45,137 nucleotides of DNA from Escherichia phage vB_Eco_Sem3. A program made the translations under genes and the position numbers. The DNA lies in sequence record PV775410.1; one strand, 5' to 3'. Below the pieces are notes generated by a model. It was not told the DNA's origin. It did no database searches and was given only the letters and a program-made list of their open reading frames with translations. Shown piece by piece: positions 24,490 through 38,280 of this stretch (positions are counted from its first letter, which is position 1; each line of letters starts with the position of its first letter).

Positions 24490-24656
24490 TGGACCACCAG
24501 TTGTGCTCTGACACAATCCATGATGTAACGCTTAACTTCATCAACGATTAACTCTTCATGAGTCTTAGTCACCTTAGGAGAAGAAGGCTTGAGAATCATC
24601 TCAAGCATCTCCATTCCTTCAAATGAAATCGTCGGTTTCTTCTTCGTCTGTACCAT
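24486..24656 (-). CDS. Hypothetical protein, about 56 aa
   Basis: Stop overlaps the GNAT start (ATGA), suggesting translational coupling; no clear RBS. Confidence 0.35.
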   Translation of the reverse strand: MVQTKKKPTISFEGMEMLEMILKPSSPKVTKTHEELIVDEVKRYIMDCVRAQLVVQ

Positions 24657-24816
24657 ATAATTCGTCAACCTTCTCTTGGATAGCTTCTACAGAAAGACCA
24701 AGTTCTTCTGCATCAGCCAGTAAAGTATATGGCACTTCCATGCCACAGGATAGAGTTTCGAAGATGGCCTCTGCTACCTCAACAGCACGAGTTGCCTTCA
24801 TAGAATCAAAAGACAT
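24619..24816 (-). CDS. Hypothetical acidic protein, 65 aa (MSFDSMKATRAVEVAEAIFE…DEEETDDFI)
   Basis: RBS AAGGAGG; the track ORF carries a 20-codon N-terminal extension. Confidence 0.5.
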   Translation of the reverse strand: MSFDSMKATRAVEVAEAIFETLSCGMEVPYTLLADAEELGLSVEAIQEKVDELYGTDEEETDDFI

Positions 24817-24933
24817 AATTAACCTCCTTTTAGTTGTGAATATAAGGAGTCTAATTCTTCTGACTGATAGCCCCACATGTAATAGTATTGCTCAATGGCT
24901 TCTATTAACAATTCAAGCTGTTTTTCGTTCAAA

Positions 24934-27688: not shown

Positions 27689-28067
27689 AAGCAAGGCGTG
27701 CCTTACGGTTCTTAGCCTCGCGCTTCTCTGCCTCCGTTTGATGTTTGTGATATAACTTATCTGTCTGAGGCGTACTATGTAACTTCCAGTATTCATATAG
27801 TCGCTCTAACCATTGAAGCTGGAAGTAACGGTTGTTACCAGCCTTACCGTAACCAGAGATAACACCCTTAATCTTTCCTTCTGCACCATTGCAGCCTCGG
27901 CATACAACAGCACGGCAGAATCCTGTCTCATGGTCATGGTCAAGTACACGGTTTATAGGAGTAACAGCCTTGAGACTGCCGCCACATAGTGGGCACTTCC
28001 ACCCTTGCTTCTCTAGCAATTCCCTCTTATAAGCTGCTACCTCCGATGATTTTAATTTGCTAACCAT
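27657..28067 (-). CDS. Endonuclease VII-like junction-resolving nuclease
   Basis: 136 aa; …WKCPLCGG…LDHDHETGFCRAVVCRGCN… matches the Cys4 plus H-N-H pattern of T4 endo VII-type enzymes. Confidence 0.7.
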   Translation of the reverse strand: MVSKLKSSEVAAYKRELLEKQGWKCPLCGGSLKAVTPINRVLDHDHETGFCRAVVCRGCNGAEGKIKGVISGYGKAGNNRYFQLQWLERLYEYWKLHSTPQTDKLYHKHQTEAEKREAKNRKARLAYARKKEVKVG

Positions 28068-29080
28068 TCTGCATCATCTCCCCACAAGATTGGGTTCTTA
28101 TCGGCTCGCCATATATCACCTTTGAATCTTGCCATGTGAGCTAGGCGACCACATTCGAGCATCAGGTCAAAAGCCTTGCCGATACGATAACCACCTCGGT
28201 AATTCTTAATCTTAACTTGTCCATGTCCGAACTTAGCCTTGTAAGCACCAAGCACTGCCATGTACAACTCTTTCTCTGTCTTACAATCTTTGAGAAGATC
28301 ATAGGCGTATTTAGCACCACGTCCAGGTATGCCAGCATAGTTATCAATATCATCACCGATAATCATCTGTGCATAATGAAACATGAGGCCAGCACCTTTA
28401 AGGTCTTTAACCTGACCATTAGCCTTACGGCGTAACTCAAGCCAACCCATAGGCTCTACCCATTTCTTCTCTTGACCCGGCTGAAGATGCCAACCGGGAA
28501 CAATCATCAAATCCTTATCTAAGGAAACGATGCAAGTATCAGAGAATGCTTTATGCTCTGGACTACCGATAGGGAACTCGTTACCTGTATCTTGCTGGAA
28601 GCGGCGGTGACTGTCCCATTGTGCAATGCTCATGAGGTCATCAGCCTCTTCTCCATCTGCCAATATTGCACCATGAACCTCTAAGAGATGCTCTCGCAAT
28701 TCATAGAAGAACGGAGGCTTCTCGGTCTTACGTTGACCCTTATAAGGTTTGGTGAAGGCTAGGCGAACTCGGAAGTTAGCTTCTGATTTCGTCATGAATA
28801 ACTTAGCAGCATCACACTCTGCTGCATACACCCAAGAGTTAAGCAAGGAGTTCACACGGTCACACGCTTGCTTACACTCAGGGGTATCTTTGATTGATGG
28901 GACTTGTCCTGACTTAACACGAGTTGTAGCTCGTACATAAGTCATGTCACTGATTGTATACCCGACGATGTAAGGTAACATATCAGCATCTATTAAAGCG
29001 ATTCGATTACCTTCAGTCGGCCACAGCAACAGGTTATTGTCTTCCGATACTGTAGCTCCGAAGTCGAAGTTTGGTCGCAT
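28052..29080 (-). CDS. 5'-3' exonuclease (T7 gp6-like, FEN family)
   Basis: Start at MRPNFDFG (RBS GAAGGAG); motifs …IALIDADMLPY… and …ADGEEADD… typical of the 5'-3' exonuclease metal-binding sites. Confidence 0.8.
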   Translation of the reverse strand: MRPNFDFGATVSEDNNLLLWPTEGNRIALIDADMLPYIVGYTISDMTYVRATTRVKSGQVPSIKDTPECKQACDRVNSLLNSWVYAAECDAAKLFMTKSEANFRVRLAFTKPYKGQRKTEKPPFFYELREHLLEVHGAILADGEEADDLMSIAQWDSHRRFQQDTGNEFPIGSPEHKAFSDTCIVSLDKDLMIVPGWHLQPGQEKKWVEPMGWLELRRKANGQVKDLKGAGLMFHYAQMIIGDDIDNYAGIPGRGAKYAYDLLKDCKTEKELYMAVLGAYKAKFGHGQVKIKNYRGGYRIGKAFDLMLECGRLAHMARFKGDIWRADKNPILWGDDAEWLAN

Positions 29081-29283
29081 GTAGGCCACTCCTTCAGCAC
29101 ATGTTCACGCAGCCACTCTTTCGCCCAATTAGCAGGGTGTATCTTATCTCGGTGACATACATACTCTGGTATTAAGTGGTTATGCAGATAAATCTCTTCA
29201 CCTAAGAGAATAGTGATAAGATAACCAAGATGTATGGATGAGAAGCTCACGTGAATCAGGAAACGTTCTTCAATAGTCGGCAT
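28993..29283 (-). CDS. Hypothetical protein, 96 aa
   Basis: RBS GGAGAA upstream of ATG; 3' part overlaps the exonuclease start by about 90 nt, so the true extent is uncertain. Confidence 0.3.
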   Translation of the reverse strand: MPTIEERFLIHVSFSSIHLGYLITILLGEEIYLHNHLIPEYVCHRDKIHPANWAKEWLREHVLKEWPTCDQTSTSELQYRKTITCCCGRLKVIESL

Positions 29284-29400: not shown

Positions 29401-29772
29401 TCAAAATTCTTCCTCTTCGCTTACCGGAGTTTCCGGTGCAGCTACTTCTTCTGCTGGAGCTTCAGCTTCTTCAGCAGCCTTAACTTCTTTCACTGGTTTA
29501 CCAGCAGCAACCCAATCCAGATATTCAGCTACGATATTAGCCTTACCAATCTGAGCTTTGTCAGCCTGCTCAGGGAAGCAAGCACGAGCGAACTCCAGAC
29601 CAGCAGCGAAGTTACCCATGCTGTCAATCTTAGCCTGAGCTTCTTCACGAGTATCATAAGCCTTAGTACCAGCTACCAGTTGATCAGCTTCATCGACGAT
29701 AATGAAAGACTCAACGGATACCAGAGCAGCACCTTTAACAACACGGTTTACGATAGTTTCAATCTTGAACAT
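29401..29772 (-). CDS. Acidic-tail protein, 123 aa (C-terminus …PVSEEEEF)
   Basis: An acidic C-terminal tail ending in Phe is the hallmark of T7 gp2.5 and gp4 DNA-polymerase-binding tails; this could be the SSB or another replisome partner. Confidence 0.55.
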   Translation of the reverse strand: MFKIETIVNRVVKGAALVSVESFIIVDEADQLVAGTKAYDTREEAQAKIDSMGNFAAGLEFARACFPEQADKAQIGKANIVAEYLDWVAAGKPVKEVKAAEEAEAPAEEVAAPETPVSEEEEF

Positions 29773-29822
29773 ATTAAATTCTCCTTTGTTAGTTGTGGCA
29801 TTATCGCCGATTAAAATTCTTC

Positions 29823-29844
29823 TCTTCTATAGTGTCCAGTAAAT
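29823..29844 (-). promoter_or_regulatory. Phage RNAP promoter
   Basis: Minus strand reads ATTTACTGGACACTATAGAAGA. Confidence 0.7.
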
Positions 29845-29858
29845 ACCGGACACCGATT

Positions 29859-29875
29859 TGTCTCACACGTGAGAC
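29859..29875. repeat. Palindromic hairpin element GTCTCACACGTGAGAC (copy 2, CACGTG-centre variant)
   Basis: Read directly; sits between a gene stop and the promoter at 29823-29844. Confidence 0.75.
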
Positions 29876-29876
29876 T

Positions 29877-30095
29877 TTATAAAACTGTGTTCACCTGAGC
29901 AATGTCATGCGCCGGAAGCGATACGCCGTGGCGTTTCCCCGTAGCTGGGTCGCTGTAGTTCACCACGTGCTGTCCGTCGCGCCAGATGTAGTGCAGGTCA
30001 GCATAAATCTCCCCTTCGGAGAAAGAGTGGAAAGTGCTACCTCCGAGCGTTGTGATACCTTTCTTGCAGTGCAGGGTTACGATTTGTACTTTCAT
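29877..30095 (-). CDS. Hypothetical protein, 72 aa
   Basis: Track ORF; tightly packed between neighbours. Confidence 0.45.
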   Translation of the reverse strand: MKVQIVTLHCKKGITTLGGSTFHSFSEGEIYADLHYIWRDGQHVVNYSDPATGKRHGVSLPAHDIAQVNTVL

Positions 30096-30104
30096 CCTTT
30101 CTCC

Positions 30105-30911
30105 TTAATATTCCGCGTCCTCATCCATCTCCGGTGCAGGAGTATCTTCTGCTTCAGGTACTTCCTGTGGAACAGACTCACCAGTATCCAGAGATTTACG
30201 ATTATCTGGAGTAGCATCCTCGTCATCTTTCTTCTTGGCTTTCTTCCACTCTGGGTCTTCTTCACGAGCAGCTTTAATGATTGCTTCTACGTGAGAACCA
30301 GCAACAGACAGGTTCTTACCACGAGGTGTTTCATTAAGGAAGTATTGACGCACCAAGTTAGCTGGGATGTCATCAAGGATTTCTTTGGTCAGCTTGTCGA
30401 AGGTGATATGACCTGTCATAGACAGACCTTCCTCTTCTACCTGAGCCAGTACAAGCTTCTTCAACTTATCAGGCATACCGCCAAAGCCTTTCCAGTTAAC
30501 ATACTTGAAAGTACCATCATCATTCTTGTCGCCAGAGCCAACCATAGTTGCAGTCAGGCATTCACCGATGAAGTCATCGAAACCACCAAGCAGCTCTTTA
30601 GGGTCAACTGCATTCAGGAACTTAGTCAAGGTTGCCTTGTCACCAGACTTCAGAGGCACAGCCATCCACTGTTCCATGCGAGAATCATCTTCATTCTTGT
30701 CGTCGTCACCCATCAGGATAATCTTAACAAGAACAAAGTTTGCTGGCTTCTTAACCTCAGTGGTATTACCTTTCTTAAAAATATCTTGGAAGGAACCAAC
30801 ATGAATGATGCCAGAGATTACTGCTTCATGATCACCAACTTCAGGGTTCTTAAATACTTTACCTTCAGCCTTAGTAACCTGAGCACCAAAATCAAAATCA
30901 CCACGTGCCAT
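30105..30911 (-). CDS. Putative ssDNA-binding protein (gp2.5-like architecture) with acidic C-terminal tail …EMDEDAEY
   Basis: 268 aa; long acidic C-terminal tail ending in an aromatic residue; position in the replication module. Assignment is tentative. Confidence 0.4.
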   Translation of the reverse strand: MARGDFDFGAQVTKAEGKVFKNPEVGDHEAVISGIIHVGSFQDIFKKGNTTEVKKPANFVLVKIILMGDDDKNEDDSRMEQWMAVPLKSGDKATLTKFLNAVDPKELLGGFDDFIGECLTATMVGSGDKNDDGTFKYVNWKGFGGMPDKLKKLVLAQVEEEGLSMTGHITFDKLTKEILDDIPANLVRQYFLNETPRGKNLSVAGSHVEAIIKAAREEDPEWKKAKKKDDEDATPDNRKSLDTGESVPQEVPEAEDTPAPEMDEDAEY

Positions 30912-31063: not shown

Positions 31064-31086
31064 TGTTCTATAGTGTCCAGTAATTA
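31064..31086 (-). promoter_or_regulatory. Phage RNAP promoter (TAATTACTGG variant) overlapping a stop codon
   Basis: Minus strand reads TAATTACTGGACACTATAGAACA. Confidence 0.55.
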
Positions 31087-31461
31087 TTTGGTCAGATTGT
31101 CTAGCTCAATTTCCAGCATAACAATCTCTTTCTTCAGACTGTCAGATGCGGCTTGATGTACAAGGGCGATGGATGCCTTGTTCTCTTCAAATTCAGCTTT
31201 CAGACTGTCGCGCTCTTGCTGGTGACGTGCCAGCATCTCTTCAACCTCTTTGACTTGGCGTGCATTAAGGTCATCACGAGATGCATAGTAGCGGTTATGG
31301 CAGTCAATCATTTTAGAACTACGATGTTCTTCAACTTTAACTTGCTCTGCCTGTACTGCCTCGATGCGAGACTCAATAGCTTTGATAGCCTTGGACTTGA
31401 ACTTATTAGCCAGACCACGAAAGTATTGAGCTACAAATACCAGAGTAGTTACCATAGACAT
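31084..31461 (-). CDS. Membrane-anchored coiled-coil protein, 125 aa
   Basis: N-terminal hydrophobic segment MSMVTTLVFVAQYF, then a charged heptad-like helical region. Confidence 0.55.
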   Translation of the reverse strand: MSMVTTLVFVAQYFRGLANKFKSKAIKAIESRIEAVQAEQVKVEEHRSSKMIDCHNRYYASRDDLNARQVKEVEEMLARHQQERDSLKAEFEENKASIALVHQAASDSLKKEIVMLEIELDNLTK

Positions 31462-31830: not shown

Positions 31831-34380
31831 TCAGTGTGTTTCCTTCCAGCTTGCGCCAATCTTATATTCTCCTGCCATCGGGCAACGCATCTTCAGATAC
31901 TGCCCTGCCCAAGTCATGGCGTCGGCAATGATATGACCTGCACGGTGATAGCGGCGCTGGCAATGCAATACACCAGCATCAGCATCAACGCTAACGAGGT
32001 TTGCAGCAGACCACATACGTCCTTCAGAATCCACATGAATACGTTTCTCCTCTGCATCGAAAACTGCTTTCACAGCAGCCTTCTCTGTTTCGAACCCATC
32101 TAAGGTGAAAGGTAGGTCGTAGTTAAGATACAAGACCTCCTCTTCAGGAACTTCCATCTGGATTTCATCATGCACGTTAGCCACACCACAAGGATTTCCC
32201 ATAGCATCCAAAGCTACACCTTCCTTGCGCATTACTGCAAATGCCTTGACTAATGCATATTTCATACACAAAGAGCCAGTCATCTGGAGTAATACGTTAA
32301 GCATCGTGTGCTCTTTAAGTTCACCACCAGACATGCGGATGCGACCCCAATGCCCATCAGGTGCTTGCAGGTAGCCAAACTTGTTACCTTGTGCGATAAC
32401 ATTCTCACGAAGACGTGCAAGAGACGGTAGTTCAATCTCGAATCTTGCCACAACTTCCTTCATTTCTTCCTCAGTAACACCGCAGACTGCTGCAAGGTTG
32501 GCTATACCAGAACCATAGAGGAAGGCGTATATAAACGTCTTCGCCATATCACGCTTAGGAAGACCAGCCTTCATCTGGTTATGCGTATGAATATCACCGT
32601 GCAGTACAATCTCTTGGTACTCAGGGTCATTCATGAAGTGAGACAGGACACGCAGTTCAAGACCTGCACCGTCACAACCAAGAATTAGCTTGCCTTTCCC
32701 TGCTATGAATAAATCACGTAAAGGATACAAGCCACGGGCAGGAATATTAACCACGTTACGATGACGCATACGGAACGTAGAAGTGCCAATACTAATAGCA
32801 ACAGCTGGAACACGCCACTCTCCGTCATCTTTGTCAGACGTAGGCCAACATCCGTACCTCTCGTAGTATTGCTGCGCATTGATTCCTAGCTCCTTGTTGA
32901 ATGCTACAGGTACAAGGCCGCGACACTTTCGTACACCAGCCTGCGAGGGCCACGTTCCCTTCTCGTTGAAGGCTTCAACGTCACCACGGTTGAGTATCTG
33001 ACCACGACGGGATACGAGTATGTACCATGCAGCGATACCCAAGCACCAATCAGGGACTGTTTTACCTTCACGTGCGGCTCTTTCTTGCCATAAAGTGAGA
33101 GACTTTTCATTTATCTTACCACTCCAAGGTTTTGGTAACACTCCGTGCTCATCGAGATGAGCTTGCTCGGTATCGTTAAATTCAACACCTTTCCATCCAT
33201 ACTCATAGAGCACTTGCTTAACTGTATCCCTGTTACCCAAGGGAATCTCTTCGAAAGTAACAGGCGAGTAAGCGCCAATCCACTTGATGCTTGGCGTGTC
33301 ATTACGGTTTCCTCTAAGGTGAGGAAAGTCTTTCTTGACACTAGCCGACCAATCACCAGACTTAGTAGTGACACTCCATACTGTCTTGCGATCTCCTCGT
33401 CTCTCGGCATGAAGAAAGTGTGAGGGGTCAAGGACAGTAGGTATATTGTTGCTAGCTCCATACTCATTTGCGCGTTGGCATACTTCATTCTTTTCTTCCG
33501 GTTTAAAAGGTTTAGACTTGATACGCATAGGCATGTGAGGGCGGAACGCTGCGACTGTCTCATCAATCTTAGCGTCCAATTCTTCGCATCGGGCCAAAGC
33601 CTTGTCTATGTCCAGACGGAACCCGCGCTCGGCCTGACGGCTCATCTCCAGCGCCACAATGGACTCCATGTGGAAGGCTGTCTCAATGCCTAGGCCCGTG
33701 CGTTTATTCACGCCACGGCGTTTGTGCTCCATCCATTCCCCGTTAAAGAGCCAGAGGAACAAGTCACGACCAATCGCCACGTCCTCACGTACACGGTGAA
33801 CCATGTGGTCAGTTAGTTTAGACCAGTCCTCGTTCTCCGGTTTATAGCGACCTATACGGATGCCGTGCGCCTCAATTGAGTGAGGGGCGACGTTACCCAT
33901 ACCTTTGGCATATGCTTGCGGAGGAAGGCGTCTATCGGGGTTTAACAGGCGACTCATCACCAGCGTATCGACCACCTTAATGGGACACAAGTCTGCCCTT
34001 AAGCTGCCTTTGCCACGACGCTGGGTATAATTATACCCTTTCCAGATATCTGGAAATGCTTTCTCTAAAGCTAAACCATCATAGCCTAAGAAGTTTTGAG
34101 AAACGATAGCATCCGCATGATATAGGAAATTAACACCATCTTCCAGAGTACCATCTTGATGTCCTTCCCATTCAACTAAATGCTCTCTTGCAGAAGGATC
34201 TCTATTCTCAAATGAGTTAAAGAAAAGAAACTCTTCGGTAGTTAGTAGATCTACGCAGCAGATAATATGGACATCGTGATTACCTTTACCATAACGTATA
34301 GCGTCTAACAAACCTTTCGCTTCCAAATCCATAACTAGGATTCTGCCTTTAGCGGCCTCTTTCCAATTAATACCTTTCAT
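31831..34380 (-). CDS. DNA polymerase (family A, with 3'-5' exonuclease domain)
   Basis: 849 aa; N-terminal exonuclease-like region (…VMDLEAKGL…) and C-terminal polymerase motifs (…LHGDIHTHNQ…, …KTFIYAFLYGSG…, …VANVHDEIQMEV…); T7-like position. Confidence 0.9.
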   Translation of the reverse strand: MKGINWKEAAKGRILVMDLEAKGLLDAIRYGKGNHDVHIICCVDLLTTEEFLFFNSFENRDPSAREHLVEWEGHQDGTLEDGVNFLYHADAIVSQNFLGYDGLALEKAFPDIWKGYNYTQRRGKGSLRADLCPIKVVDTLVMSRLLNPDRRLPPQAYAKGMGNVAPHSIEAHGIRIGRYKPENEDWSKLTDHMVHRVREDVAIGRDLFLWLFNGEWMEHKRRGVNKRTGLGIETAFHMESIVALEMSRQAERGFRLDIDKALARCEELDAKIDETVAAFRPHMPMRIKSKPFKPEEKNEVCQRANEYGASNNIPTVLDPSHFLHAERRGDRKTVWSVTTKSGDWSASVKKDFPHLRGNRNDTPSIKWIGAYSPVTFEEIPLGNRDTVKQVLYEYGWKGVEFNDTEQAHLDEHGVLPKPWSGKINEKSLTLWQERAAREGKTVPDWCLGIAAWYILVSRRGQILNRGDVEAFNEKGTWPSQAGVRKCRGLVPVAFNKELGINAQQYYERYGCWPTSDKDDGEWRVPAVAISIGTSTFRMRHRNVVNIPARGLYPLRDLFIAGKGKLILGCDGAGLELRVLSHFMNDPEYQEIVLHGDIHTHNQMKAGLPKRDMAKTFIYAFLYGSGIANLAAVCGVTEEEMKEVVARFEIELPSLARLRENVIAQGNKFGYLQAPDGHWGRIRMSGGELKEHTMLNVLLQMTGSLCMKYALVKAFAVMRKEGVALDAMGNPCGVANVHDEIQMEVPEEEVLYLNYDLPFTLDGFETEKAAVKAVFDAEEKRIHVDSEGRMWSAANLVSVDADAGVLHCQRRYHRAGHIIADAMTWAGQYLKMRCPMAGEYKIGASWKETH

Positions 34381-34852
34381 ATCTAGACCAACCTTTGTGA
34401 GATTTGAAATTCCGCCAACCTTTATACACCTTACTCATAGAATTAAGGTTGAGGTTGTTTTCTTTGCAGAATTTAGACAAGTTAAATACTTCTACTCGTT
34501 CTCCTTCTGGATTACAGAATATGTAGGATTTAGCACAAGCAGCTTCGTGTCTCTCTTTAGAATGCGCAGTGTTACCTAACCTATCAGTCCATTCTAAATT
34601 ATCTTCATGACAGTTAGCTCTGTCATAATCTTTATGGTTGACTTCTGGTAAATTAAGAGGGTTCGGTATGAAATTCTCTGCCACCAAGCGGTGCAATTTC
34701 CTATGCTTTCCTGCAATATTCATTATCCGATAACCATCTTTGTCAAGATAACCTACAAGGAATCTGTTTGTTATCGTGCTAAAGATACGACCATCGGAAT
34801 AGAGGATGTAGTTAGTAAAAATCCTCGTACATTTGATCTGTTTCGAACTCAT
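34367..34852 (-). CDS. HNH homing endonuclease (161 aa) abutting the DNA polymerase start
   Basis: Start at MSSKQIK (RBS AGGAGGGAGG); …LPEVNHKDYDRANCHEDNLEW… HNH motif; 3' end overlaps the DNAP start by 14 nt. Confidence 0.75.
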   Translation of the reverse strand: MSSKQIKCTRIFTNYILYSDGRIFSTITNRFLVGYLDKDGYRIMNIAGKHRKLHRLVAENFIPNPLNLPEVNHKDYDRANCHEDNLEWTDRLGNTAHSKERHEAACAKSYIFCNPEGERVEVFNLSKFCKENNLNLNSMSKVYKGWRNFKSHKGWSRYERY

Positions 34853-34953
34853 CCTCCCTCCTTTCTGGTTTAGGTTGCATTGAATCTTGGAAATCCCAAT
34901 CAGAATCATAATCACGTGGCATAATGCACCTCCAATCAACATGATAAAAGGCT

Positions 34954-34969
34954 GTCTCACACGTGAGAC
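34954..34969. repeat. Palindromic hairpin element GTCTCACACGTGAGAC (copy 3)
   Basis: Read directly; followed on the transcribed strand by CCTTTTAT. Confidence 0.75.
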
Positions 34970-36130: not shown

Positions 36131-36292
36131 CTAGATAAGGCGTGTTACAATAAAGAACATTGACATCATAAAACCAGATGCAACGATAAGTTTCACTGCT
36201 TTCTTGAAGCCATATCGTGCAGCATAATCTGCGATCACAAGCATGAATAGGATCTCAATACCGATATTCAATACTGGTTTAATAATTTCCAT
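36131..36292 (-). CDS. Small hydrophobic protein, 53 aa (MEIIKPVLNIGIEILFMLVIADYAARYGF…)
   Basis: Hand-called; ATG overlaps the primase/helicase stop (TAATG). Confidence 0.4.
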   Translation of the reverse strand: MEIIKPVLNIGIEILFMLVIADYAARYGFKKAVKLIVASGFMMSMFFIVTRLI

Positions 36293-38280
36293 TAAAACTC
36301 CTGTTCATCGTCAAAAGTTGTCTCTTCTATAGTGTCCGGTAAATCCGGCACTTCTTGTTGCCTTGCTTCACCTGTATCAAATGACTTAGTACGGGCTTGT
36401 GGTTCCATTAAACGTCCGGTTTGAATGTCACCCTTAAGCATGACCTTGGTTCCAGTGTAGATACCTTGGTCGCGGTCTTTGACACATGAGATGTACGTGG
36501 TAGTCCGTTCATCAAGCGTTTCAGCTCTTGTATTACGCTCAATCCCCAAGGCGTAAGATGCCCAGAATCCGATAGCGCCTGAACCTCGGAAGTCAGAAAG
36601 GATAACCTCGCCACCTTCTTCGTGTTGGGTACGGTTTGCCGGAGGACGTGTAAGGTGTGATACAAGGAATATAGTAACCGGGTGTCGGTCTTTGATAGTA
36701 CCAATCCGCTTGACGCATTCATCAAGTGCACCAACCTTCCCACCAAAAGCACGCTCATCTAATTTAATCCCCGTTAAGTTATCAATGATGATATTAGAAA
36801 TGCCCATAGCCTCAAACTCTAGGCAAGTTTGCTCTACCTTTTCCATCGAATAGTCACCCTCTAGGTCAGCTACAAACAGCTTACCTGTATCAGCTACATA
36901 ATCAATGGCGGCGTTAGCCTCTTCCTCGGTGTAGTCGAACACCTCACGGTATCCATCTTCTTTCGGGTCGTTGGTTGGCGGTAACTCAATACGCTTATCA
37001 ATCCACTTGCCGATAAAAGCACGGGACACCTTGACCATCGGGTCTTCTGTAGAAATGATGCCTACAGATTCACCGTGTTCTTCAATGAGGTGCTTAACTA
37101 CTTCACGAAGGAACTCAGTCTTACCCACACCAGAGCCTGCGCCTACAATGATAAGTTGGTTCTTACGAATACCTAGCGTTACCTTGTTCAGCTTAGGCCA
37201 AGGCCATGATAGTCCTTGCTCTGGACGTGCAGCCTTGAGCTTATCCCTTTGAGATGCGATAGATTTAATCTGGCTACCAAAGACTTCATCAGATGACTTG
37301 GCATTAAACCATGCATCTACAAACTCTTTAGCCTTGCCAGCCATCAATGCCTTGTTAGCATCTTTGCAACCAGATGGATATTCGAGGATGTAGGATTTGC
37401 CAGGAAACAGGCGAGCAGCTTGTTGGTTCTGCTTCTGCCCCACCTCGTCGCCATCAAAGCCCCATATAATCTTCTTGAATTGGGCTATGTGCTCACGGTT
37501 TTGCACTATCTCTTCAAGGCAAGACTCACCTTTATTGACAGACCATACATGGTATGGCTGACCTTCCCACTTAGTACCTTTGGCAGAATCAAGGAGCATC
37601 TGCTGCGCTGCTAGTGCATCAAGTTCACCGCCTACAATAAGCAAGCAATCCTTTCGTCTCCCCTTGTCTAACACGTGAGACAAAGTATTCATACCGAAAA
37701 GATCTTGCATGCCAAAGAGTTTACCTAAATGACCAAACTTAAAATCTTTAGGTAATGTGCGACACTTAGCTCCTACTAGCTCACCTTTCTCGAAGCGTGG
37801 ATAGTAATGCCGCGAGACTCTACCCTCTTCATCGTGTCCGACACGTACATCATACAATGCGCAAATGTCGCCGCGAATGTGTCTGGAAACAAGGTTCTTA
37901 CGCTTAAGCGTGAGGAACCATTCAACATCAAGTTTCCACTCTGCTTCTTGGTCTGCCCTTTCTTGCTCATTCATGACCTCCCAACGGTCTTTCATACGCA
38001 TACCACCAAGAGCGATGGCGCGTAGCTTAGGGTCGCTTATCTTCCCTTCCTTCTCCATCTCTTTGAATTGAGAAGGTGTGTATTTGATATTGCCAGTAAT
38101 AGGCAACTCGGTTATCTCGATGCCTCCCTCTGGCTTATGATAGTAGGGTCTACCATTATCATGAAAGTGACCACGGTTACAATAGCCAGCACCATCATCA
38201 AATATCATGAGATGATTGCCGGATTTATCGTGCCCATTCTTCTGGCAGGCAGGGCACGGGATGTTATTAATAATAGCCAT
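36292..38280 (-). CDS. Bifunctional DNA primase/helicase (T7 gp4-like)
   Basis: N-terminal zinc ribbon (…CPACQKNGHDKSGNHLMIFDDGAGYCNRGHF…), Walker A …VGAGSGVGKTEF…, acidic C-terminus ending …DDEQEF. Confidence 0.9.
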   Translation of the reverse strand: MAIINNIPCPACQKNGHDKSGNHLMIFDDGAGYCNRGHFHDNGRPYYHKPEGGIEITELPITGNIKYTPSQFKEMEKEGKISDPKLRAIALGGMRMKDRWEVMNEQERADQEAEWKLDVEWFLTLKRKNLVSRHIRGDICALYDVRVGHDEEGRVSRHYYPRFEKGELVGAKCRTLPKDFKFGHLGKLFGMQDLFGMNTLSHVLDKGRRKDCLLIVGGELDALAAQQMLLDSAKGTKWEGQPYHVWSVNKGESCLEEIVQNREHIAQFKKIIWGFDGDEVGQKQNQQAARLFPGKSYILEYPSGCKDANKALMAGKAKEFVDAWFNAKSSDEVFGSQIKSIASQRDKLKAARPEQGLSWPWPKLNKVTLGIRKNQLIIVGAGSGVGKTEFLREVVKHLIEEHGESVGIISTEDPMVKVSRAFIGKWIDKRIELPPTNDPKEDGYREVFDYTEEEANAAIDYVADTGKLFVADLEGDYSMEKVEQTCLEFEAMGISNIIIDNLTGIKLDERAFGGKVGALDECVKRIGTIKDRHPVTIFLVSHLTRPPANRTQHEEGGEVILSDFRGSGAIGFWASYALGIERNTRAETLDERTTTYISCVKDRDQGIYTGTKVMLKGDIQTGRLMEPQARTKSFDTGEARQQEVPDLPDTIEETTFDDEQEF
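36321..36344 (-). promoter_or_regulatory. Phage RNAP promoter, CCGGT class
   Basis: Minus strand reads ATTTACCGGACACTATAGAAGAGA; embedded in the 3' end of the primase/helicase gene. Confidence 0.65.

What the first reader, a model, noticed from the sequence alone, without database searches (positions are those of the whole stretch)
29401..30911. Two proteins with gp2.5-style acidic C-terminal tails (…EEEEF and …DEDAEY): which is the SSB?
In T7 the SSB (gp2.5) and the helicase (gp4) bind DNA polymerase through acidic tails ending in Phe. Here the helicase ends …DDEQEF, a 123-aa protein ends …SEEEEF and a 268-aa protein ends …DEDAEY. The small protein may be a minimal SSB or a novel replisome or host-target binding partner.
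Basis: inference. Interest (0 to 1): 0.4.

Follow-up and report, generated by a model that had tools for sequence, protein, structure and literature searches.

The report
Unannotated phage SSB plus tailed partner
In this K1-5/SP6-like coliphage, the 268-aa "hypothetical" protein is most likely the phage's missing single-stranded-DNA-binding protein, while the 123-aa protein is not an SSB but a small conserved protein of unknown function that carries the same acidic, aromatic-ended docking tail as the SSB candidate and the helicase.

Summary
The window is a Vectrevirus (K1-5/K1E/SP6-like) genome. Exactly three genes end in an acidic stretch plus a terminal aromatic: primase-helicase (…DDEQEF), the 268-aa K1-5 gp16 homolog (…DEDAEY) and the 123-aa gp18 homolog (…SEEEEF). 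Shuffles predict 0.03 such tails.

**gp16 is the SSB candidate.**
- The AlphaFold model shows a confident OB-fold, a helical subdomain and a disordered 40-residue acidic tail.
- The tail is conserved down to 30% identity.
- 17 of 74 remote family members end in bacterial-SSB-type tips such as DDDIPF.
- It has no sequence link to T7 gp2.5, Pfam or PDB. There is only a structural link to DUF669-type phage SSBs.
- All 215 GenBank phage homologs are annotated "hypothetical" or "unknown function".

**gp18 is not an OB-fold.** It has a beta-hairpin plus helical-hairpin domain, a variable Ala/Glu/Pro linker and a conserved tip, and it sits in the same gene slot downstream of gp16. The terminal aromatic type co-varies among the three proteins across phage lineages, which suggests one shared docking site. 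The DNA polymerase is the likely site, but this is inferred.

In passing: gp16 and the 5'-3' exonuclease share an N-terminal FDFGAxV motif.

The parts
30105..30911 (-). 268-aa protein (K1-5 gp16 / SP6 gene 18 homolog; phrog_862): candidate phage SSB
30474..30854 (-). OB-fold core of gp16 (about residues 20-146): beta1-3, helix, beta4-5
   Evidence: Secondary structure and pLDDT 79-94. OB-fold matches.
30228..30473 (-). C-terminal helical subdomain of gp16 (about residues 147-228)
   Evidence: Helices 148-161, 176-190 and 207-218, with pLDDT 84-92.
30108..30227 (-). Disordered acidic tail of gp16 (residues 229-268, net charge -14), ending DEDAEY
   Evidence: pLDDT below 50. Charge. The terminal E/D-x-E-[YF] is conserved in 33 of 33 aligned homologs.
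30876..30899 (-). N-terminal motif DFDFGAQV of gp16 (residues 5-12), in a disordered extension
   Evidence: pLDDT about 42. F6, G9 and A10 are invariant. The motif occurs only twice in the window.
29877..30095 (-). 72-aa protein (K1-5 gp17 homolog, phrog_5791), function unknown, between the two tailed genes
   Evidence: Proteins of about 90 aa occupy the same slot in distant loci; I did not test whether they are homologs.
29401..29772 (-). 123-aa protein (K1-5 gp18 / SP6_20 homolog, phrog_4429): non-OB accessory protein with an acidic-aromatic tail
29488..29772 (-). gp18 folded domain (residues 1-95): beta-hairpin 3-26 plus helices 42-65 and 71-89
   Evidence: Mean fraction of sequences with the commonest residue is 0.63.
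29404..29487 (-). gp18 variable Ala/Glu/Pro linker (residues 96-117) and conserved tip SEEEEF (118-123)
   Evidence: pLDDT below 50. Linker conservation 0.35 against tip 0.61. 102 of 116 distant homologs end in F or Y.
36292..38280 (-). Primase-helicase (K1-5 gp9 homolog); the last 9 residues TFDDEQEF are at 36295-36321
31831..34380 (-). Family-A DNA polymerase, the inferred acceptor of the three tails
   Evidence: 35% identity to T7 gp5 over the palm and fingers. The T7 front basic patch is not aligned, but an adjacent conserved basic loop WGRIR is present. The acceptor role is inference only.
28052..29089 (-). 5'-3' exonuclease (K1-5 gp20 homolog); its N-terminus carries the same NFDFGATV motif (residues 7-14, 29048-29071)

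Best explanation
The window is the replication module of an SP6/K1-5-like podovirus. It appears to use a T7-style 'acidic tail with terminal aromatic' docking code on three proteins.

(1) The 268-aa protein (gp16) is the phage's single-stranded-DNA-binding protein. Its OB-fold core coats ssDNA. Its 40-residue disordered acidic tail ending in Tyr docks on a replisome partner, as T7 gp2.5's tail docks on T7 DNA polymerase. It belongs to a sequence-orphan OB-fold family (phrog_862) that is not the gp2.5 family. By structure it groups with DUF669-type phage SSBs and with PrgE.

(2) The 123-aa protein (gp18) is not an SSB. It is a small alpha/beta domain joined by a flexible Ala/Glu/Pro linker to an EEEEF tip. 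It most likely acts as an accessory factor that occupies the same docking site as the helicase and SSB tails. Possible roles are adaptor, competitor or regulator at the fork or in the adjacent exonuclease/recombination step.

What is shown: gene existence, fold class, disorder and conservation of the tails, synteny, and tail co-variation. What is inferred: ssDNA binding, the polymerase as the acceptor, and any activity of gp18. My confidence differs by claim: about 0.8 that gp16 is the SSB, and about 0.45 that gp18 is a replisome accessory protein using the same docking site.
For: **The tails are not chance.** Three genes carry them against 0.033 expected.

**gp16**
- The AF2 model is confident for residues 20-228, with canonical OB topology followed by a disordered tail.
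- The tail is conserved in all 33 aligned homologs down to 33% identity.
- Of 74 full-length family representatives, 49 end in an aromatic residue. Seventeen carry bacterial-SSB-like xPF/xPY tips, including LDDDIPF.
- One DDDIPF member sits in the same gene order: DNAP, small ORF, this protein, small ORF, exonuclease, endonuclease VII.
- No other SSB-like protein was found among the ten other small or unannotated early- and middle-region proteins I scanned.
- Foldseek against BFVD links the model to DUF669 proteins. A DUF669 protein is an experimentally shown SSB in HK620 (PMC5928155), and DUF669 is linked to the N4 SSB (PMC4889955).

**gp18**
- It is syntenic with gp16 in 37 of 44 loci, including Vibrio, Pseudomonas and Marinomonas phages.
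- Its conservation pattern is domain, variable linker, conserved tip.

**Co-variation**
- Terminal aromatic type co-varies across 17 lineages: helicase against gp16, Fisher p = 0.008; helicase against gp18, p = 0.013.
- Klebsiella and Aeromonas phages are Y/Y/Y. Pseudomonas phages place F one or two residues before the end in all three proteins.

**T7 precedent.** The gp2.5 tail docks on the DNAP front basic patch, and the terminal Phe is essential (PMC12339929 and references therein).
Against: - No biochemical data exist for either protein.
- gp16 has no significant sequence similarity to T7 gp2.5 (hhalign E 0.6), N4 SSB, HK620 SSB, any Pfam family or any PDB chain.
- The best structural match, PrgE, binds dsDNA as well as ssDNA and is not a canonical SSB (PMC11137577).
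- The gp16 core is mildly acidic (pI 5.5).
- The T7 front basic patch is not conserved in the SP6-like polymerase, so the acceptor site is unknown.
- The co-variation statistics are not corrected for phylogeny and rest on about three independent changes. The E. coli/Salmonella group itself is mixed (F/Y/F).
- Some positional analogs of gp18 lack the tail (L034, L039).
Confidence: 0.6

Rival explanations
1. The 123-aa protein is a minimal SSB. In this reading the 268-aa protein has some other role.
For: It has an SSB-like architecture of folded domain, flexible linker and acidic tip ending in Phe.
Confidence: 0.05
2. The gp18 tail targets a host protein, not the phage replisome. It could mimic the C-terminal tip of host SSB to sequester or recruit SSB-interacting proteins, or act as a decoy against a defence system that senses phage SSB tails.
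For: Acidic tips ending in Phe are the universal handle of bacterial SSB. Remote gp16 relatives carry true DDDIPF tips, which shows that this phage group does exploit host SSB partners. gp18 has no recognisable enzymatic or DNA-binding fold.
Against: The gp18 tip (EEEEF) lacks the I-P-F signature. Its aromatic type follows that of the phage helicase across hosts, and the helicase tail is expected to bind a phage partner. gp18 sits inside the replication and recombination module next to the exonuclease.
Confidence: 0.2
3. The gp18 tail (and the gp16 tail) binds the ssDNA-binding groove of gp16 itself or the exonuclease, acting as a DNA-mimicking regulator. This would resemble the way gp2.5's own tail competes with ssDNA. 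In this reading gp18 modulates SSB loading or exonuclease processing and does not bind the polymerase.
For: gp18 is always encoded between the SSB candidate and the exonuclease. In T7, the SSB tail and ssDNA compete for the same surface (my own recollection of the literature, not checked here).
Against: It does not explain why the helicase tail co-varies with the gp18 tail. No direct evidence.
Confidence: 0.15
4. The 268-aa protein is an OB-fold protein with a different job, such as replication initiator or double-strand binder, and is not the replicative SSB. The NCBIfam label 'NGO0469 family replication initiation protein' and the dsDNA binding of PrgE point this way. The phage would then rely on host SSB.
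For: There are weak sub-threshold hits to NF046043: E 0.0015 for gp16 and 6.6e-11 for remote relative P0195. PrgE binds dsDNA and ssDNA equally (PMC11137577).
Against: The 'replication initiation' label for NGO0469 rests on 26-32% similarity over about 100 residues to unrelated proteins and was never tested (PMC1931599). SSB-type tails, including DDDIPF, are the family hallmark. No other phage SSB was found in the proteins scanned.
Confidence: 0.1

Closest known systems
T7 gp2.5 (SSB) and gp4 (helicase-primase) C-terminal tails docking on T7 DNA polymerase
   Same: Both systems are Autographiviridae replisomes. Both have a primase-helicase and an OB-fold protein that each end in a disordered acidic tail with a terminal aromatic residue.
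   Different: gp16 shows no detectable sequence homology to gp2.5, and gp2.5 is not among the top structural matches. The gene sits after the polymerase, not before the helicase. A third, non-OB protein (gp18) carries the same tail. The T7 front basic patch is not conserved in this polymerase.
DUF669 / N4-type phage SSBs (HK620 HkaK, N4 gp45)
   Same: Both are highly diverged phage OB-fold proteins of about 190-270 aa, mostly with acidic tails. gp16 matches DUF669-annotated viral models by Foldseek at E 3e-5 to 2e-4. By eye, the N-terminal pattern G-x-F-x-N-x-x-G-x-H is shared with HK620 SSB.
   Different: gp16 has no Pfam PF05037 hit in 73 family members. hhalign against N4 SSB and HK620 SSB is not significant. 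No Sak4-family hit was seen among the neighbouring proteins I scanned, though not every gene was scanned. N4 SSB itself ends in a basic stretch (…SLFGKK), not an acidic one.
PrgE of Enterococcus plasmid pCF10 (PDB 8S4S)
   Different: Identity is only 14% and rmsd is 5.8 A. PrgE is 144 aa, lacks the long acidic tail with a terminal aromatic, and binds dsDNA as well as ssDNA.
Bacterial SSB C-terminal tip (DDDIPF) as a protein-recruitment hub
   Same: Both have a disordered linker plus an acidic tip ending in an aromatic residue. 17 of 74 remote gp16-family members carry xPF/xPY tips, including DDDIPF.
   Different: The window's proteins end in …EDAEY and …EEEEF without the I-P-F signature. There is no homology to PF00436.
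UPF0339 / DUF1508 (YegP-like) small domains, the nearest named thing to gp18
   Different: Only 1 of 47 family members matches Pfam DUF1508, at E 0.31. gp18 adds a second long helix, a linker and an acidic tip. The function of DUF1508 is itself unknown.

Membership tests
T7 gp2.5-like SSB family | Detectable sequence homology to gp2.5 or its Pfam model | tested here: not met
   hhalign of the gp16 profile against T7 gp2.5 gives E 0.6 and probability 0.1%. There is no Pfam hit and no hit to gp2.5 or Enc34 SSB chains in the PDB sequence searches.
T7 gp2.5-like SSB family | OB-fold core | tested here: met
T7 gp2.5-like SSB family | Disordered acidic C-terminal tail ending in an aromatic residue | tested here: met
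   Residues 229-268 have pLDDT below 50 and net charge -14, with a terminal Tyr. Conserved in 33 of 33 homologs.
T7 gp2.5-like SSB family | Binds ssDNA and the phage DNA polymerase through the tail | not testable with these tools
   Needs EMSA and pull-down experiments. The only support here is indirect, from tail co-variation.
DUF669 / N4-type phage SSB | Match to Pfam PF05037, or significant profile similarity to N4 gp45 or HK620 HkaK | tested here: not met
   DUF669 does not appear among the 25 Pfam families listed for 73 family members at E up to 1 (26 families matched). hhalign gives E 0.18-0.35.
DUF669 / N4-type phage SSB | Structural similarity to DUF669 proteins | tested here: inconclusive
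   Foldseek against BFVD hits DUF669-annotated models at E 3.2e-5 and 1.6e-4, with TM scores of only 0.3-0.47. There is also a weak link to the NCBIfam NGO0469 family.
Bacterial SSB (PF00436) | SSB OB-domain homology and a DDDIPF-type tip | tested here: not met
   No Pfam or PDB sequence hit. The tip is …DEDAEY. Only remote family members carry DDDIPF.
OB-fold SSB (applied to the 123-aa gp18) | OB-fold or other known ssDNA-binding fold | tested here: not met
UPF0339 / DUF1508 (applied to gp18) | Match to PF07411 | tested here: not met

The most novel reading that the evidence does not exclude
SP6-like replisomes are organised by a small network of short docking peptides. One is a C-terminal acidic-aromatic tail shared by three proteins: the helicase, an orphan-family OB-fold SSB, and gp18, which would be a new class of small replisome adaptor or regulator. 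The other is an N-terminal FDFGAxV peptide shared by the SSB and the 5'-3' exonuclease. [quoted passage not shown]
Probability: 0.25. Interest if true: 0.6.

Novelty: new variant of a known kind. Interest (0 to 1): 0.45.

Why it matters
- **Annotation gap.** SP6/K1-5/K1E-like phages are therapy candidates and the source of SP6 RNA polymerase, yet none of the 215 phage records examined names this gene an SSB. Assigning the 268-aa family (phrog_862) would fill that gap for hundreds of genomes and metagenomic contigs.
- **Independent evolution of the tail code.** The T7 docking tail would have been adopted by an unrelated OB-fold family.
- **Partner switching by tip exchange.** The same family uses T7-type tips in some phages and bacterial DDDIPF tips in others. 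That makes it a natural system for studying how phage SSBs switch between phage and host partners.
- **A possible new replisome component.** A third, non-enzymatic tail-bearing protein (gp18) would be a new, testable replisome component or host-interaction factor.
- **Relevance to defence.** Phage SSBs are reported triggers of bacterial defence systems (my own recollection, not checked here), so knowing which gene is the SSB also helps interpret escape mutants.

Tried and rejected
**Sequence searches that found nothing**
- Pfam, NCBIfam and PDB searches with single sequences and with profiles gave no significant hit for gp16 or gp18.
- Profile comparisons of gp16 with T7 gp2.5, N4 SSB and HK620 SSB were all non-significant.

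**Leads checked and dropped**
- *Homology of gp18 to shorter positional analogs.* The 78-100-aa tail-bearing proteins occupying the same slot in loci L032-L039 gave hhalign E 0.014 and probability 3% against gp18. Only positional analogy is claimed.
- *A second SSB in Pectobacterium phage PP99.* Its annotated 'putative ssDNA binding protein' (orf17) might have revealed a second SSB type in this phage group. It is a YpsA/DprA-like SLOG protein and has no counterpart in the window.
- *The T7 front basic patch as tail acceptor.* I looked for K587-R591 in the window's polymerase. That segment is a gap in the alignment. A neighbouring conserved basic loop (WGRIR) exists but proves nothing.

**Literature**
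- Searches for an SSB assignment in SP6/K1-5-like phages found none.
- Of the two original SP6/K1-5 genome papers, Dobbins 2004 could not be retrieved and Scholl 2004 (no PMC id) was not looked up. A prior remark there on these tails cannot be excluded.

Full report
**Identity of the window.** The 4-kb stretch around the finding is 100% identical to Escherichia phage vB_Eco_Sem1. It is 93-99% identical to K1-5, K1E, LL11 and other Vectrevirus genomes (Autographiviridae, Molineuxvirinae). All genes lie on the minus strand. In K1-5 nomenclature the order is: primase-helicase (gp9), DNA polymerase, several small ORFs, gp16 (268 aa), gp17 (72 aa), gp18 (123 aa), gp19, 5'-3' exonuclease, endonuclease VII, phosphoesterase, kinase, ligase. 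GenBank and RefSeq call gp16, gp17 and gp18 'hypothetical'.

**Checking the observation.** The ORFs and their C-termini are exactly as described. I defined the tail as a last residue of F/Y/W with at least 4 D/E in the last 8 residues. Only three of 254 six-frame ORFs qualify, and only three of 51 coding-strand genes: helicase, gp16 and gp18. Within-protein shuffles give 0.033 per proteome and never three. An 85-aa protein at 24619-24876 ends …DEEETDDFI and is a near miss.

**The 268-aa protein (gp16).**
- *No named family.* It has no Pfam family and falls in PHROG 862, 'unknown function'. It has no relative by sequence in the PDB.
- *Conserved ends.* Thirty-three homologs down to 33% identity keep a C-terminus of acidic residues ending in Y or F, and an N-terminal F-D-F-G-A motif.
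- *Structure.* An AlphaFold2 model built on that alignment is confident for residues 20-228, with mean pLDDT 77.7 and pTM 0.72. It shows beta1-beta3, a helix, beta4-beta5, then a helical subdomain. Residues 1-18 and 229-268 are disordered.
- *The wider family.* A HMMER profile search of 1.8 billion representatives finds only 85 relatives. None carries a Pfam domain, and their PHROGs are all 'unknown'.
- *Tails across the family.* Of 74 full-length representatives, 49 end in an aromatic residue. Seventeen end in xPF or xPY, including LDDDIPF, LDDEIPF and LDDEVPF, which is the canonical tip of bacterial SSB.
- *Conserved gene order.* One DDDIPF member lies in a contig with the same order: DNAP, small ORF, this protein, small ORF, exonuclease, endonuclease VII.

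So an OB-fold family that sits in podovirus replication modules carries either a T7-type or a host-SSB-type recruitment tip. That is what one expects of a replicative SSB. None of the ten other unannotated early- and middle-region proteins I scanned looks like an SSB. The 'putative ssDNA binding protein' annotated in the related phage PP99 is a YpsA/DprA-type SLOG protein that is absent here.

**Relation of gp16 to known SSB families.**
- Profile comparisons with T7 gp2.5, N4 SSB and HK620 SSB are not significant.
- Foldseek against BFVD links the model to many uncharacterised phage proteins and to DUF669-annotated proteins, at E 3e-5 to 2e-4.
- NCBIfam gives sub-threshold hits to the 'NGO0469 family': E 0.0015 for gp16 and 6.6e-11 for remote relative P0195. 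The 'replication initiation' label of that family rests on weak similarity only (PMC1931599).
- DUF669 was predicted to be a diverged OB-fold SSB related to N4 SSB (PMC4889955). The HK620 DUF669 protein was shown to be an SSB (PMC5928155).

I therefore file gp16 as working like a T7-style SSB. It is not a member of the gp2.5 family, and membership of the DUF669/N4 group is unproven.

**The 123-aa protein (gp18).**
- *Sequence pattern.* Close homologs are nearly invariant over residues 1-95, variable in an Ala/Glu/Pro-rich linker, and invariant again in the tip (V/L)S(E/A)EEEF.
- *Distant homologs.* A profile of distant syntenic homologs recovered more than 360 proteins from Vibrio, Pseudomonas, Marinomonas, Aeromonas, Erwinia, Proteus and Klebsiella phages. 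102 of 116 end in F or Y, and most of the rest have F one or two residues from the end.
- *Conservation by region.* The mean fraction of sequences sharing the commonest residue is 0.63 in the domain, 0.35 in the linker and 0.61 in the tip.
- *Structure.* The AF2 model has core pLDDT 79-88. It shows a beta-hairpin (residues 3-26), two long helices (42-65 and 71-89) and a disordered tail.
- *Charge.* The core is acidic, with pI 4.9.

gp18 is therefore not a minimal SSB.

**Synteny and co-variation.** A gp18 homolog lies downstream of the gp16 homolog in 37 of 44 loci. In the remaining loci with enough flank, a 78-100-aa protein, mostly also with an acidic tail ending in F, occupies the slot. Its homology to gp18 is not demonstrable.

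I compared the last residues of helicase, gp16 and gp18 across 17 lineages:
- Twelve lineages have the same class in all three proteins.
- Klebsiella phages and Aeromonas phage MJG are Y/Y/Y.
- Pseudomonas phages uligo and Njord have the F followed by one or two extra residues in all three proteins.
- Most other lineages are F/F/F.
- The E. coli/Salmonella group is F/Y/F.

Naive Fisher tests give p = 0.008 for helicase against gp16 and p = 0.013 for helicase against gp18. They are not corrected for phylogeny and rest on few independent changes, so I treat them as suggestive evidence that the three tails see one acceptor site.

In T7 the gp2.5 tail docks on the DNAP front basic patch (PMC12339929); that gp4's tail binds the polymerase likewise is my recollection of the T7 literature, not checked here. 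That patch is a gap in the alignment with the SP6-like polymerase, and a neighbouring conserved basic loop (WGRIR) exists. The identity of the acceptor therefore remains an inference.

**A second shared peptide.** gp16 (residues 5-12, DFDFGAQV) and the 5'-3' exonuclease (residues 7-14, NFDFGATV) share an N-terminal motif. It occurs nowhere else in the six frames of the window, against 0.18 expected. It is conserved and co-varies in both proteins across distant phages: FDYGVDKDEL with FDYGVAPEEL in L037, and FDYGGEVAE with FDYGGEVAD in L040. In the gp16 model it lies in a disordered extension. The best structural match, PrgE, uses its N-terminal tail to contact the neighbouring monomer on ssDNA (PMC11137577). 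A reasonable but untested idea follows: the motif mediates SSB-SSB cooperativity, and the exonuclease uses the same motif to dock on SSB-coated DNA.

**Verdict.**
The SSB is the 268-aa protein (about 0.8 confidence). It belongs to an unannotated OB-fold family that is distinct from gp2.5.
- The 123-aa protein is not an SSB. It is a conserved, tail-bearing accessory protein whose partner is unknown. My best guess, at about 0.45, is that it uses the same docking site as the SSB and helicase tails.
- This is a new variant of a known kind of system and is of moderate interest. The next experiments are simple binding assays and tail-deletion genetics.

Noticed in passing
window 30876-30899 (-) and 29048-29071 (-): The SSB candidate gp16 and the 5'-3' exonuclease share an N-terminal motif, [FY][DNE][FY]G[AGV]x[VI]: DFDFGAQV and NFDFGATV. 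These are the only two matches in all six frames of the window, against 0.18 expected. The motif is conserved and co-varies in both proteins across distant phages. It may be a shared docking or cooperativity peptide.
   Followed up: partly
window 24619-24876 (-): An 85-aa protein as listed from the first start codon (annotated as 71 aa in K1-5 and LL11; K1-5 gene 25 homolog, phrog_5860, unknown function) ends …YGTDEEETDDFI. This is a fourth acidic tail, with Phe one residue from the end.
   Followed up: no
P0195, P0237, P0244, P0215, P0241, P0243 and others; locus L048 2815-3774: Remote members of the gp16 family end in bacterial-SSB-type tips (DDDIPF, DDEIPF, DDEVPF, DDDLPF). In L048 such a member sits in the same DNAP to exonuclease to endonuclease VII gene order. 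This implies tip swapping between phage-type and host-type partners within one family.
   Followed up: partly
window 29877-30095 (-): The 72-aa gp17 lies between the two tailed genes. A protein of about 90 aa with a shared C-terminal …NYDYP(I/M)…(R/K)(V/I)… motif occupies the same position in distant Vibrio, Pseudomonas and Aeromonas phages. The window's own gp17 does not obviously carry that motif, and homology was not tested. Function unknown.
   Followed up: no
window 34367-34960 (-): An ORF abuts the 5' end of the DNA polymerase gene (197 aa as listed from the first start codon). It corresponds to the 159-aa gene annotated 'HNH endonuclease' in LL11. K1-5 has only a 50-aa ORF at this position, so this is a variable mobile insertion.
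   Followed up: no
window 28993-29283 (-): A 96-aa ORF annotated 'DNA repair protein' in RefSeq (phrog_10319) overlaps the 5' end of the exonuclease gene by about 97 nt in another frame. The functional label has no visible support in Pfam.
   Followed up: no
locus L053 4173-4643 (Pectobacterium phage PP99 orf17): The gene annotated 'putative ssDNA binding protein' matches the Pfam YpsA SLOG family (5.4e-14) and DprA (5.5e-6). It is not an OB-fold SSB, so the annotation is probably misleading.
   Followed up: yes
window 31084-31461 (-): A 125-aa coiled-coil protein is labelled 'polysaccharide chain length determinant protein' in RefSeq and PHROGs (phrog_7450). It sits inside the replication module, and only weak coiled-coil-type Pfam hits were seen. 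The name looks like annotation carry-over.
   Followed up: no
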